A stretch of DNA of 64,000 bases from Gammaproteobacteria bacterium. Lineage in GTDB: Bacteria > Pseudomonadota > Gammaproteobacteria > JABDBA01. Made by a program: the position numbers and the translations under genes. The notes beneath the pieces were generated by a model. That model saw nothing but the letters and a program-made list of their open reading frames with translations, was not told where the DNA came from and did no database searches. This document shows, piece by piece, positions 38,021 to 39,857 of the stretch; position 1 is the first letter of the stretch; the number at the start of each line of letters is the position of its first letter. The DNA is taken from NCBI GenBank assembly GCA_013288885.1, contig JABDBA010000003.1:31869-95868 (forward strand), given 5' to 3'.

Positions 38021-38242
38021 TTATTTTACTTTAATAGTAACAATAACTTCCATTTTATTTTGCACAATATTCATTATCTCATGCCCATGTACTCTACACC
38101 AAGCTGGGATATCATGCACCACCCCCGGGTCAGTACAAGTTACTTCTAAGATATCCCCCGCTGCCAATTCTTTCACCTTGGTTTGTACGCGGATAACCGG
38201 CAATGGGCATAATAAACGGCGGGCGTCGAGTTGGTGGGTCAT
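38021..38242 (-). CDS. TusA-like sulfur carrier protein (SirA/YedF/YeeD family)
   Basis: Start MTHQLDARRLLCPLPVIRVQ at 38242 carries the CPxP motif; the ORF track extends to 38299. ATGA coupling with the upstream PP-loop gene. Confidence 0.7.
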   Translation of the reverse strand: MTHQLDARRLLCPLPVIRVQTKVKELAAGDILEVTCTDPGVVHDIPAWCRVHGHEIMNIVQNKMEVIVTIKVK

Positions 38243-39282
38243 ACATACCACTCTTGTTGTATTGCATCCGCCAACAGCGGCTGTACATCTAACTTCCAAA
38301 CCGCACCATCCAAACTGTGCACCTCTACCGTTACTTTATCCTCATCACGACCATGACAAAAACGTCCGGCGATTTGTGCGGCCAGATGCAAGTCTTCGGC
38401 ACTGGGTTCGCCGTCGATTAAAGTCAACGGCCCCATATGGCTCAAAATACGCAAATGGATAAACTGGTGCCTATAACCTTCGAGAAAATTATTTTCACCT
38501 TCTTCGCGCCCGACGATCAATTTATAATTTTCTGCCGGGCGAATATGGCGGCCGACTTTGAGCAGCATAATATCATCCAATTCATAATCTTTTTTACGAC
38601 GACTGTGCCATAGATCGGCTAATTTAGCCGCGTAATTTTGATCGGTTAAAAAACAACAACCACCAGCAGGCTGCGCATATTCGTCGATTGCAAATTTTTT
38701 TGCGAGTGCTATTTGTGGTTTGCGACTGCGACCAGAAAAATCGCCTAATAATTCACGCTTCACCCAGCCTTCGCACTCTGGCAACGTGGGTGCTAATAAT
38801 TTGGCACATAACGGTCGCAGCAAACGATCTTCTGCGCCGGACTCGCGTGCCACGATTGGCATTTTGGTTTTAAGTTGCGAATTCGGTCGTTGGCCAATCA
38901 CCTCACCAGTGATTATAAAATCAAAATTATTTTCTTCCAGCCATTGTTTTGCCCGCCCCACCATAAAAATTTTACAATCAAGACACGGATTAAGATGAGC
39001 GCCATAACCATGTTTGGGATTCAACACAATATTTTTATATTCTTCGACGATATCGATGATATGCAATTTAATACCGAGTTGCTCCGCCACCCACAACGCA
39101 TTATTACGTTTTTGTTTGTTACGATCTTTTTGCCGAATCGCATGGGTGTGCCCTTCTACACAAAAGCCGGTAAAAAAATTCAGGCCCTCGACATGAATGC
39201 CTTGCGCCTGCACAAGTTTGGTGGCCAACATAGAATCGAGGCCACCGGAGATAAGAGCAACTGCTTTGCGGGGGGTGTTCAT
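38239..39282 (-). CDS. PP-loop ATP pyrophosphatase, ThiI/MnmA-like putative thiolation enzyme without a THUMP domain
   Basis: SGGLDS PP-loop at residue 12. ITGEVIGQRPNSQ...LLRPL resembles the ThiI AANH core (VTGEALGQVSSQT...ILRPL). Conserved Cys residues NPCLDCK and GGCC. A ~120-aa C-terminal extension. Confidence 0.55.
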   Translation of the reverse strand: MNTPRKAVALISGGLDSMLATKLVQAQGIHVEGLNFFTGFCVEGHTHAIRQKDRNKQKRNNALWVAEQLGIKLHIIDIVEEYKNIVLNPKHGYGAHLNPCLDCKIFMVGRAKQWLEENNFDFIITGEVIGQRPNSQLKTKMPIVARESGAEDRLLRPLCAKLLAPTLPECEGWVKRELLGDFSGRSRKPQIALAKKFAIDEYAQPAGGCCFLTDQNYAAKLADLWHSRRKKDYELDDIMLLKVGRHIRPAENYKLIVGREEGENNFLEGYRHQFIHLRILSHMGPLTLIDGEPSAEDLHLAAQIAGRFCHGRDEDKVTVEVHSLDGAVWKLDVQPLLADAIQQEWYV

Positions 39283-39857
39283 ATTGTCCGTGATCTTATG
39301 GAAGAACTTGCTTGGTTTGCTGATAACAAGGGTTGAGTAACAGATGCAGGCGTTTGATCGGCTGATGTTGTTGAGCTTACACCATCTGAAGGTTTATGGC
39401 CATGCAAAACGGGGGATCGTGGATCATATTGCGGAAGAACACCAGAGAATAGCTTAGTATGCTGATTTTTTGGGGAAAACCCTGCTATGGCCAGGTTAAA
39501 TTTCCATCCTTTATTATCCTCTTCTTCTAAATCTAATTCGTCGTCAACCCTGCTAGAATCACGACTCGCTCTTTCCACCAAATTCCATACCCACGTGATG
39601 AGAACGCCAATAAAAAACGGCGACAATCTTATTAGTTCAGCACCCCCCTCATGCCCAGGGGAAGGATCATCGCCCCCATTCAGCGTGCGCGGTAACCCAT
39701 CTTGATATTTAGTCGCAAAATTCAGTATATTCCACACGGCACTAATAGCTGTAAGTAACGCAAATAATTTCCATTTAGTCGAACTACCCGATGTTTGTTT
39801 TTGATCTTGACTTGGTTGCATAAAAAAACCTCTATTAATAAAATTATTATCATTCAC
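39279..39857 (-). CDS. Hypothetical membrane protein (2 TM), first gene of the PP-loop/TusA operon
   Basis: ATGA coupling to the PP-loop gene. Ser/Thr-rich C-terminus. Confidence 0.45.
   Translation of the reverse strand: MNDNNFINRGFFMQPSQDQKQTSGSSTKWKLFALLTAISAVWNILNFATKYQDGLPRTLNGGDDPSPGHEGGAELIRLSPFFIGVLITWVWNLVERASRDSSRVDDELDLEEEDNKGWKFNLAIAGFSPKNQHTKLFSGVLPQYDPRSPVLHGHKPSDGVSSTTSADQTPASVTQPLLSANQASSSIRSRTI

What the first reader, a model, noticed from the sequence alone, without database searches (positions are those of the whole stretch)
38021..39857. Translationally coupled operon of a membrane protein, a THUMP-less ThiI-like PP-loop ATPase and a TusA-like sulfur carrier
All three junctions are ATGA overlaps. 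The PP-loop protein has an SGGLDS motif at residue 12 and a ThiI-like AANH core (ITGEVIGQRPNSQ...LLRPL). It lacks the THUMP tRNA-binding domain and the rhodanese domain of ThiI, and carries a ~120-aa C-terminal extension instead. Its partners are a TusA-family persulfide carrier and a small membrane protein. Neighbouring family-A repeat elements at 37945-37984 and 39903-39921 are consistent with insertion. This looks like a self-contained sulfur-transfer/thiolation module whose substrate is unknown. It could be a tRNA, a cofactor or a small molecule.
Basis: partly seen in the sequence, partly recalled or inferred. Interest (0 to 1): 0.6.

Follow-up and report, generated by a model that had tools for sequence, protein, structure and literature searches.

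The report
ThiI-like/NFACT-R RNA thiolase with TusA
This is an ordinary copy of a widespread bacterial gene pair, a sulfur-inserting enzyme fused to an RNA-binding domain plus its small sulfur-carrier partner, which was predicted in 2014 to make 4-thiouridine in tRNA but for which I found no experimental test.

Summary
Both internal junctions are ATGA overlaps; there are two junctions, not three.

The 347-aa protein is not an orphan "ThiI with an unknown C-terminal extension". The extension is a Pfam NFACT-R_2 (formerly DUF814) RNA-binding domain (E=3e-34). The whole protein matches the ThiI+DUF814 family in every sequence feature that Burroughs & Aravind (2014, PMC4075521) described, including the TusA neighbour. 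They predicted that this family is an alternative tRNA 4-thiouridine pathway.

The family is large: 840 50%-identity clusters at E≤1e-30. TusA lies directly downstream in 73 of 81 gammaproteobacterial loci, usually with overlapping stop and start codons.

Three cysteines are invariant (C100-x-x-C103 and C210). They align with the catalytic triad of MnmA and have the CxxC+C pattern of [4Fe-4S]-dependent tRNA sulfurases.

The "membrane protein" is a fast-evolving, lineage-specific ORF and not a conserved partner. The flanking repeats are dispersed REP-like elements. Synteny with the CDF-transporter and glnA genes is kept in relatives, so the module is not an insertion.

Verdict: a known, computationally described kind. 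I found no experimental test of its function. Interest is low to moderate.

The parts
38239..39282 (-). Gene for the 347-aa ThiI/MnmA-like PP-loop ATPase fused to an NFACT-R_2 domain
   Evidence: ORF. Pfam tRNA_Me_trans 6-129 (2.6e-11), ThiI 5-158 (1.7e-9), NFACT-R_2 244-346 (3.3e-34). At least 7,996 homologues were found; the 120 listed carry these Pfam domains (one lacks the ThiI hit). AF2 model pLDDT 93.7.
38803..39270 (-). PP-loop (adenine-nucleotide alpha-hydrolase) catalytic domain, residues about 5-160. Contains SGGLDS 12-17, NPC100-L-D-C103, GEVIGQRP 126-133 and RPL 156-158.
   Evidence: Invariant columns in the 51-sequence alignment A1. Foldseek hits to MnmA, ThiI, LarE and TtuA. In the profile alignment, NPCxDC aligns to MnmA NP(D/C)xxC and GEVxGQ..RPL aligns to ThiI.
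38554..38802 (-). Family-specific insert or lid, residues about 161-243. Contains T166xxE169, G184-R-x-R187-x-x-Q190 and the third invariant cysteine C210 (GGCC).
   Evidence: Invariant and near-invariant columns in A1. The motifs match those listed for ThiI+DUF814 proteins in PMC4075521. The C210 region aligns to the E. coli MnmA Cys199 segment STGIC, but in a second, non-significant HMMER domain (score -2.1).
38245..38553 (-). NFACT-R_2 (DUF814) predicted RNA-binding domain, residues 244-346, with invariant R245 and R259
   Evidence: Pfam PF18297 E=3.3e-34, present in 51 of 51 family members scanned. Profile hits to the RqcH NFACT-R domain (9e-7) and to FBPS (2.7e-5); Foldseek hits 5h3w and 7aqc_R. 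Invariant arginines.
38021..38242 (-). TusA-family sulfur-carrier gene (73 aa). Its start codon overlaps the PP-loop gene's stop codon (ATGA).
   Evidence: PF01206 E=1.6e-20. Below the NCBIfam TusA equivalog cutoff, 50.9 against 78. Cys12 in CPxP and Cys49 are conserved in at least 90% of 75 orthologues. Directly downstream of the PP-loop gene in 73 of 81 loci.
39279..39857 (-). ORF-A: a lineage-specific small ORF (192 aa from GTG; probably 180 aa from ATG 39821) with two hydrophobic segments. Its stop codon overlaps the PP-loop gene's start codon. It is not a conserved member of the module.
   Evidence: Only a self-hit among 5.8 billion proteins. 23% identity and E=9e-8 to the positional counterpart in L001. 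Replaced by unrelated small ORFs in L082 and L083. Hydropathy and codon score. RBS-like AGAGG before ATG 39821.
37944..37992 (.). REP-like palindromic repeat unit downstream of TusA; a possible terminator or mRNA-stabilising hairpin
   Evidence: Repeat family D6/D7 and pairs I3-I5, I12, I13. 5 copies against 0.01 expected. A hairpin is present in the 101-nt fold, -26.3 kcal/mol, z=-2.35.
39896..39924 (.). Half copy of the same REP-like element, between the 1281-aa gene and ORF-A
   Evidence: D7 copy and inverted pair I17 with 37944-37964. One mismatch to the core sequence.

Best explanation
The conserved unit is two genes, not three.

**The enzyme.** The 347-aa protein belongs to the ThiI+NFACT-R (DUF814) family of PP-loop ATPases.
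- Its N-terminal domain binds ATP through SGGLDS and adenylates a carbonyl oxygen of a target uridine. This step is inferred from the PP-loop sulfurtransferase superfamily.
- Its C-terminal NFACT-R domain takes the place of the THUMP domain and holds the RNA substrate. This is also inferred. The domain contacts an rRNA helix in RqcH, and two arginines in it are invariant in this family.

**The partner.** The translationally coupled 73-aa TusA paralogue takes the place of the rhodanese domain. It would carry a persulfide, obtained from a cysteine desulfurase, on its CPxP cysteine to the active site (inferred).

**The product.** The most likely product is 4-thiouridine at position 8 of tRNA, as predicted by Burroughs & Aravind in 2014.

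**The sulfur-insertion step.** The three invariant cysteines (C100, C103, C210) form the CxxC+C pattern. I therefore think it more likely than not that they hold a [4Fe-4S] cluster whose free iron receives the sulfur, as in C-type MnmA, TtuA and archaeal TtuI. The alternative is a persulfide/disulfide relay of the E. coli ThiI or MnmA type.

**The surroundings.** ORF-A is a clade-specific add-on of unknown role, and the REP-like repeats are ordinary intergenic elements.
For: Architecture:
- Pfam NFACT-R_2 (3.3e-34) together with ThiI and tRNA_Me_trans hits, and no THUMP or rhodanese.
- The same architecture in 51 of 51 diverse members.
- A confident AF2 model (pLDDT 93.7). Its N-terminal domain matches MnmA, ThiI, LarE and TtuA, and its C-terminal domain matches RqcH and FBPS NFACT-R.

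Family motifs listed in PMC4075521 are all present and invariant or nearly so: SGGLDS, CxxC plus an internal Cys, GRxRxxQ, TxxE and two Arg in NFACT-R.

TusA linkage:
- 73 of 81 loci, 53 of 74 with overlapping stop and start codons, 34 of them the same 4-nt overlap.
- The carrier cysteine is conserved.

Fe-S link:
- CxxC+C aligns to MnmA D/C99-C102 and C199.
- The same motif binds [4Fe-4S] in TtMnmA (PMC7025502) and in MmTtuI (PMC9825150).
- A 45%-identical relative sits in an IscU-PPloop-TusA-DUF1858-NifU operon.

RNA contact by NFACT-R is seen in RqcH-50S structures (bioRxiv 10.1101/2020.09.03.281279).

The prediction of s4U, and the reported near-exclusive distribution against THUMP-ThiI, come from PMC4075521.
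Against: - I found no experimental work on any member. NCBIfam release 20.0 has no model that the protein passes.
- The target nucleoside is not fixed by sequence. The N-terminal 130 residues and the cysteine triad align at least as well to MnmA (s2U34) as to ThiI.
- The complementary distribution with canonical ThiI could not be re-tested here. Only 64 kb of this genome was available.
- TusA was adjacent in only 1 of 5 distant family members sampled.
- In RqcH, NFACT-R contacts rRNA, not tRNA.
- Cluster binding is inferred from a motif only.
Confidence: 0.6

Rival explanations
1. It is the same enzyme family and chemistry, but the target is not U8 of tRNA. The target could be another thiolated position (for example an s2U or s2C-type site) or another RNA such as rRNA.
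For: - The PP-loop half scores slightly better against MnmA than against ThiI: Pfam 2.6e-11 against 1.7e-9, and PDB profile 4.9e-11 against 3.2e-9.
- The cysteine triad aligns to the MnmA catalytic residues.
- TusA is best known from the s2U34 relay (PMC4075521).
- The only structurally observed NFACT-R contact is with 23S rRNA helix 38.
Against: - The central and C-terminal tRNA-binding domains of MnmA are absent, and whole-protein scores are 41-43 bits against cutoffs of 237-284.
- The GEVxGQ...RPL block is ThiI-like.
- PMC4075521 reports that the family replaces THUMP-ThiI phyletically.
- From my own knowledge, no thiolated nucleoside is known in bacterial rRNA.
Confidence: 0.22
2. It is a sulfur-insertion enzyme for a cofactor or small molecule, LarE-like or thiamine-related.
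For: - Foldseek finds LarE, including the [4Fe-4S] form 8cnz, among the top hits for the catalytic domain.
- One distant relative lies next to a Thi4-family gene.
Against: - The fused NFACT-R domain is present in 51 of 51 members, with invariant arginines. This argues for a nucleic-acid substrate.
- The role of ThiI in thiamine synthesis depends on its rhodanese domain (my own knowledge), which is absent here.
- No cofactor-biosynthesis genes are conserved in the neighbourhood.
Confidence: 0.05
3. It is a self-contained three-gene mobile module (membrane protein + PP-loop + TusA) inserted between REP-like repeats.
For: - A 21-nt inverted pair (95% complementary) brackets 37944-39922 (I17).
- ORF-A is translationally coupled to the PP-loop gene.
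Against: - The same repeat occurs at three other intergenic sites in the window.
- The PP-loop-TusA-CDF-GlnA order is kept in relatives that are 75-84% identical, and glnA follows the pair in 58 of 80 gammaproteobacterial loci.
- ORF-A has no homologues beyond one close relative.
- GC content (0.42-0.45) is like that of the window (0.42).
- There are no PADLOC hits.
Confidence: 0.03

Closest known systems
ThiI+DUF814 (NFACT-R) PP-loop proteins with a TusA neighbour (Burroughs & Aravind 2014, RNA Biol 11:360, PMC4075521; Pfam PF18297 NFACT-R_2)
   Same: Same domain order, same invariant motifs (SGGxDS, CxxC+C, GRxRxxQ, TxxE, two Arg in NFACT-R), same lack of THUMP and rhodanese, and the same TusA gene neighbour.
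   Different: Nothing of substance differs. In this clade a non-conserved small ORF is translationally coupled upstream, and a CDF-transporter gene lies between TusA and glnA.
Canonical tRNA 4-thiouridine synthase ThiI/TtuI (NFLD-THUMP-PP-loop, with or without rhodanese; TIGR00342; PDB 2c5s, 4kr6)
   Same: PP-loop ATP site, the GE(S/V)xGQ...RPL block, a catalytic-loop cysteine, and the predicted chemistry of uridine adenylation followed by sulfur substitution.
   Different: There is no NFLD, THUMP or rhodanese domain. The score is 38 bits against a cutoff of 264.5. The family has an invariant CxxC and a longer lid. RNA binding is by NFACT-R, and sulfur delivery is presumably by TusA.
MnmA, especially C-type [4Fe-4S] MnmA (Shigi et al. 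2020, PMC7025502; PDB 2der, 2hma, 9hln)
   Same: The N-terminal 130 residues align, including NP(C/D)xxC, and the third cysteine aligns to EcMnmA C199. The CxxC-C triad is the same as in the Fe-S-dependent C-type.
   Different: The central and C-terminal beta-barrel tRNA-binding domains of MnmA are missing. Scores are far below the MnmA cutoffs. A ThiI-like GEVxGQ..RPL block and an NFACT-R domain are present instead.
Archaeal [4Fe-4S]-dependent TtuI (M. maripaludis ThiI; He et al. 2022, PMC9825150) and TtuA/Ncs6
   Same: A CxxC+C motif in a PP-loop sulfurase with no rhodanese domain. TtuA is among the fold hits.
   Different: Those enzymes use THUMP (TtuI) or zinc fingers (TtuA) for tRNA binding, and sulfide or TtuB-thiocarboxylate as the sulfur donor. 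Here the corresponding parts are NFACT-R and a TusA partner. Cluster binding is untested.
RqcH/NEMF NFACT-R domain
   Same: Homologous fold for residues 244-346. The domain contacts RNA in RqcH.
   Different: According to PMC4075521, the DxxxH (DWH) motif of RqcH-type NFACT-R domains is replaced in this subfamily by two invariant arginines. NFACT-N, HhH and coiled-coil regions are absent.

Membership tests
ThiI+NFACT-R (DUF814) PP-loop family | N-terminal PP-loop domain with SGGxDS | tested here: met
   S12-G-G-L-D-S17 is invariant in 51 sequences. Pfam ThiI and tRNA_Me_trans hits.
ThiI+NFACT-R (DUF814) PP-loop family | C-terminal NFACT-R_2/DUF814 domain | tested here: met
   PF18297 E=3.3e-34, covering profile positions 1-104 of 104. 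RqcH and FBPS hits.
ThiI+NFACT-R (DUF814) PP-loop family | Absence of THUMP and rhodanese domains | tested here: met
   No such Pfam or NCBIfam hits at E≤1. The 347 residues are fully accounted for by the PP-loop domain, the lid and NFACT-R.
ThiI+NFACT-R (DUF814) PP-loop family | CxxC plus internal Cys; GRxRxxQ and TxxE motifs in the enlarged lid; two conserved Arg in the NFACT-R domain | tested here: met
   C100, C103, C210, G184, R187, Q190, R245 and R259 are invariant. T166, E169 and R185 are at least 90% conserved. The motif list is from PMC4075521.
ThiI+NFACT-R (DUF814) PP-loop family | Conserved neighbourhood with a TusA-family gene | tested here: met
   TusA overlaps the stop codon here. 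73 of 81 gammaproteobacterial loci. 1 of 5 distant members sampled.
ThiI+NFACT-R (DUF814) PP-loop family | Genome lacks canonical THUMP-ThiI (near-exclusive distribution reported) | not testable with these tools
   Only 64 kb of the genome is available. It holds one SGGxDS protein.
Canonical ThiI/TtuI (TIGR00342) | NFLD + THUMP N-terminal domains and a whole-protein score above the curated cutoff | tested here: not met
   38.1 bits against a cutoff of 264.5. Only profile positions 172-313 match. No THUMP hit.
MnmA (TIGR00420 / NF001138) | Full three-domain MnmA architecture and a score above the curated cutoff | tested here: not met
   41-43 bits against cutoffs of 237-284. Only residues 7-130 align.
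MnmA (TIGR00420 / NF001138) | Catalytic (D/C)xxC ... C triad | tested here: met
   The family's NPCiDC aligns to NPCVMC and NPDILC of MnmA chains. GGcC aligns to the STGIC segment (C199) of 2der, although that second alignment is a non-significant HMMER domain (score -2.1).
[4Fe-4S]-dependent PP-loop tRNA sulfurases (TtuA, C-type MnmA, archaeal TtuI) | Three-cysteine CxxC+C ligand set | tested here: met
   C100, C103 and C210 are invariant. The motif definition is from PMC7025502 and PMC9825150.
[4Fe-4S]-dependent PP-loop tRNA sulfurases (TtuA, C-type MnmA, archaeal TtuI) | Actual binding of a [4Fe-4S] cluster that is required for activity | not testable with these tools
   This needs anaerobic purification and spectroscopy.
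TusA family (PF01206) | TusA fold with the conserved CPxP persulfide cysteine | tested here: met
   PF01206 at 73.2 bits against a cutoff of 28.6. L-C12-P-x-P is at least 90% conserved in 75 orthologues.
Canonical TusA equivalog (NF001423) | Score above the equivalog cutoff | tested here: not met
   50.9 bits against a cutoff of 78. This is a TusA-family paralogue, not the s2U-relay TusA itself.
QueC / TilS / LarE / NAD synthase | Score above the family cutoff | tested here: not met
   QueC 16 against 22 bits, NAD_synthase 16.7 against 21, TilS 13.8 against 93.6. LarE appears only as a fold-level hit to the shared PP-loop core.

The most novel reading that the evidence does not exclude
The ThiI+NFACT-R/TusA pair is a [4Fe-4S]-dependent RNA sulfurase in which a TusA persulfide is delivered directly to the cluster, a donor-acceptor combination I have not seen described. 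In addition, its target is not tRNA U8 but a thiolation site or RNA class that has not yet been catalogued. The lineage-specific small ORF coupled upstream would modulate it in this host-associated clade.
Probability: 0.12. Interest if true: 0.65.

Novelty: already known. Interest (0 to 1): 0.3.

Why it matters
The locus itself adds little. It is one more orthologue of a very large family whose architecture, TusA linkage and likely role were published in 2014 and are encoded in a Pfam model.

The remaining value is in an open question. I found no paper that tests this prediction, and no curated NCBIfam model names the family. The enzyme that may make s4U in many bacteria lacking canonical ThiI is therefore, as far as I could find, still unproven. 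These bacteria include many Gammaproteobacteria and, according to the 2014 paper, epsilon- and deltaproteobacteria, Firmicutes, spirochaetes and Aquificae.

Two points from this analysis could sharpen an experimental test:
- The invariant CxxC+C triad aligns with the MnmA catalytic site, which suggests an Fe-S-dependent mechanism.
- The stop/start overlap with TusA is strongly conserved, which suggests the two proteins are made in a fixed ratio.

Tried and rejected
- **Exact-sequence contig lookup for the window's own protein.** Nothing on record.
- **Literature searches for follow-up work on ThiI+NFACT-R.** I tried NFACT-R+thiouridine, DUF814+TusA, NFACT+ThiI, and citing papers that mention thiouridine. 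Only the 2014 paper came back.
- **Homologues of ORF-A.** None beyond itself in the word-indexed search. A three-way alignment with the positional counterparts shows that only L001 is related.
- **Anti-phage defence reading.** This was prompted by the Cap9 and YcfA (QueC-like) fold hits. There are no PADLOC hits and the synteny is of housekeeping type, so I rejected it.
- **Rfam scan of the window.** No riboswitch or leader near the operon.
- **Promoter and terminator scan.** Nothing above the shuffled expectation.
- **Insertion or mobile-module reading.** Rejected on synteny.
- **Thiamine role.** Rejected because there is no rhodanese domain.
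Full report
**What is in the sequence**

Positions 38021-39857 hold three same-strand (minus) ORFs.

- ORF-A is 39857..39279. It is 192 aa from a GTG start. The ATG at 39821 has an AGAGG 7 nt upstream and is the start used in the only database entry, P0121 of 180 aa.
- The second ORF is a 347-aa protein, 39282..38239.
- The third is a 73-aa protein, 38242..38021.

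Both internal junctions are 4-nt ATGA overlaps. SGGLDS sits at residues 12-17, ITGEVIGQRPNSQ at 124-136 and LLRPL at 154-158.

**What the proteins are**

The 347-aa protein has three Pfam hits:

| Pfam family | Residues | E-value |
|---|---|---|
| tRNA_Me_trans (the MnmA HUP domain) | 6-129 | 2.6e-11 |
| ThiI | 5-158 | 1.7e-9 |
| NFACT-R_2 | 244-346 | 3.3e-34 (full profile length) |

No THUMP or rhodanese domain is found. All NCBIfam hits are far below their curated cutoffs: MnmA scores 41-43 bits against cutoffs of 237-284, ThiI 38 against 264.5, and QueC, TilS and NAD synthase are marginal. The protein is thus a member of none of those named families.

The 73-aa protein is a TusA-family domain (PF01206, 1.6e-20). 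It scores below the cutoff for the canonical TusA equivalog, 50.9 against 78. ORF-A matches nothing.

An AlphaFold2 model built on a 51-sequence alignment is confident, with pLDDT 93.7 and pTM 0.88. Foldseek against the PDB matches the N-terminal domain to MnmA, ThiI, LarE and TtuA. It matches the C-terminal domain to the NFACT-R parts of FBPS (5h3w) and RqcH (7aqc). A profile search of the PDB agrees: MnmA 4.9e-11, ThiI 3.2e-9, RqcH 9e-7.

**This architecture has already been described**

Burroughs & Aravind (RNA Biol 2014, PMC4075521) defined NFACT-R and reported its fusion to a ThiI-like PP-loop domain in many bacterial phyla. They listed these features:

- loss of the THUMP and rhodanese domains;
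- retention of the PP-loop, a CxxC motif and an internal cysteine;
- an enlarged lid carrying GRxRxxQ and TxxE motifs;
- two nearly invariant arginines in the NFACT-R domain;
- a TusA gene as the only widely conserved neighbour, fused to the enzyme in Francisella philomiragia;
- IscS and IscU/NifU genes nearby in some lineages;
- a nearly mutually exclusive distribution with THUMP-ThiI.

They predicted a new tRNA 4-thiouridylation pathway in which NFACT-R replaces THUMP and TusA replaces the rhodanese domain.

I re-tested every sequence-level feature. In alignment A1 (51 members, down to 35% identity), the invariant residues are S12-G-G-L-D16, N98-P-C100-x-D-C103, G184, R187, Q190, C210, R245 and R259. 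T166, E169 and R185 are at least 90% conserved. All 51 members carry NFACT-R_2.

The family is large. At least 7,996 proteins were found in the word-indexed search, and the 120 listed carry these Pfam domains (one lacks the ThiI hit). The exhaustive search found 840 50%-identity clusters at E≤1e-30.

**Gene context**

A scan of one genome per GTDB species returned at least 598 confirmed loci. The best 80 are all from Gammaproteobacteria, at 63-71% identity.

- TusA lies directly downstream in 73 of 81 loci. Some of the exceptions are contig ends.
- In 53 of 74 loci the stop and start codons overlap, and in 34 the overlap is the same 4 nt. Translational coupling of the enzyme and TusA is therefore a conserved trait.
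- The TusA orthologues keep the CPxP cysteine (Cys12) and a second cysteine (Cys49).
- Among five distant members sampled, one has TusA adjacent. That locus is an IscU-enzyme-TusA-DUF1858-NifU operon.

ORF-A is not part of the conserved unit.

- It has no homologue among 5.8 billion proteins other than itself.
- An 84%-identical relative (L001) has a 185-aa ORF at the same place. It shares 23% identity (E=9e-8) across the two hydrophobic segments, but it is separated from the enzyme gene by about 70 nt.
- A 75%-identical relative (L082) has an unrelated, polar 149-aa ORF there, overlapping the enzyme gene by 8 nt.
- A 74%-identical relative (L083) has a 51-aa ORF there.
- The codon score of ORF-A is best in its own frame but weak. 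Its two hydrophobic stretches are borderline for membrane helices.

I read it as a real but fast-evolving clade-specific gene of unknown role.

**The insertion idea fails**

It has five copies in the window, all intergenic, against 0.01 expected by chance. The copy after TusA folds as a hairpin.

The order enzyme-TusA-CDF transporter-GlnA is the same in L001 and L082. glnA follows the pair in 58 of 80 gammaproteobacterial loci. GC content matches that of the window. The pair is therefore old and vertically inherited at this position.

**How it most likely works**

These points are shown by the analysis:

- the domain architecture;
- the invariant ATP-binding loop;
- three invariant cysteines;
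- an RNA-binding-type domain with invariant arginines;
- a coupled TusA partner that keeps its carrier cysteine.

These steps are inferred:

- ATP-dependent adenylation of a uridine carbonyl, followed by substitution with sulfur that a cysteine desulfurase passes to TusA Cys12 and TusA then delivers.
- RNA positioning by NFACT-R. In RqcH-50S structures this domain contacts 23S rRNA helix 38, through a DWH motif that this subfamily replaces with the two arginines.

I add one refinement. The family's NPCxDC aligns with MnmA's NP(D/C)xxC. The GGCC210 segment aligns with the E. coli MnmA Cys199 segment, although that second alignment comes from a non-significant HMMER domain. The always-cysteine CxxC+C version of this triad is the ligand set of the [4Fe-4S] clusters in T. 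thermophilus MnmA (PMC7025502) and in M. maripaludis TtuI (PMC9825150). Together with the IscU/NifU neighbours in some lineages (PMC4075521), this makes an Fe-S-dependent mechanism plausible. It is not proven.

**What remains uncertain**

The target nucleoside is not determined by the sequence. The PP-loop half is a mosaic: MnmA-like up to residue 130, then ThiI-like in the GEVxGQ...RPL block.

The argument for s4U8 rests mainly on the published phyletic complementarity with ThiI. I could not re-test it, because only 64 kb of this genome was available and that stretch holds just one SGGxDS protein. I found no experimental paper on any member of the family. NCBIfam release 20.0 has no model for it.

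**Verdict**

The pair is a known, computationally characterised kind, and this locus is an ordinary orthologue. Interest is low to moderate, and it lies only in the fact that I found no experimental test of the 2014 prediction.

Noticed in passing
window 14892-14940, 17928-17976, 18573-18621, 37944-37992, 39896-39924: A REP-like palindromic intergenic repeat family of about 49 nt, with core GTAGGTCGGATCAAGTCGC. There are 5 copies against 0.01 expected by chance. The copy after TusA folds as a hairpin.
   Followed up: partly
window 22462-22497 and 61069-61104: Two exact 36-nt copies of AAATCCCCCCTAACCCCCCTTTTTCAAAGGGGGGAA. This is a second dispersed element, with a C6/G6 hairpin that looks like a terminator.
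   Followed up: no
window 29344-31932, 31948-34542 and 34607-35284: Two tandem paralogous ankyrin-repeat genes of about 860 aa (blocks of 77-88% nucleotide identity) plus a DUF4124 gene lie between glnA and the Exo_endo_phos gene (28553-29314). In relatives L001 and L082, glnA is followed directly by Exo_endo_phos, so this looks like a lineage-specific gain of eukaryote-like genes.
   Followed up: partly
window 39926-43771 (-): A 1281-aa ORF lies immediately upstream of ORF-A. Pfam finds only a Sel1 repeat. By eye the sequence contains GNCVFHAAFG, which is reminiscent of an OTU-type cysteine box; I did not test this. The relative L001 has a DnaJ-ankyrin protein at the same place. Together with the roughly 42% GC content, this suggests a host-associated (Legionellales-like) gammaproteobacterium, but the organism was not identified.
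   Followed up: no
loci L002-L081, downstream of the PP-loop/TusA pair: glnA lies just downstream of the enzyme-TusA pair in 58 of 80 gammaproteobacterial loci, and a further conserved gene cluster follows in about 30 loci. glyQ lies upstream in 24 loci. The synteny is conserved, but whether it has any functional meaning is unknown.
   Followed up: partly
L087:2543-4772: A 45%-identical relative sits in an IscU(NifU_N)-enzyme-TusA-DUF1858-NifU operon with overlapping genes. This links the family to Fe-S scaffold proteins.
   Followed up: no
window 9467-9832 (-) and 28422-28498 (-): An RNase P RNA (class A, 340 bits) and a tRNA-Met (CAT) with U at position 8.
   Followed up: no
L082:4559-5008 and L083:4849-5004: In relatives, unrelated small ORFs (149 aa and 51 aa) also overlap the enzyme's start codon by 4-8 nt. 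An upstream coupled small ORF seems to recur even though its sequence is not conserved. It could be a leader or regulatory ORF, or an annotation artefact.
   Followed up: partly
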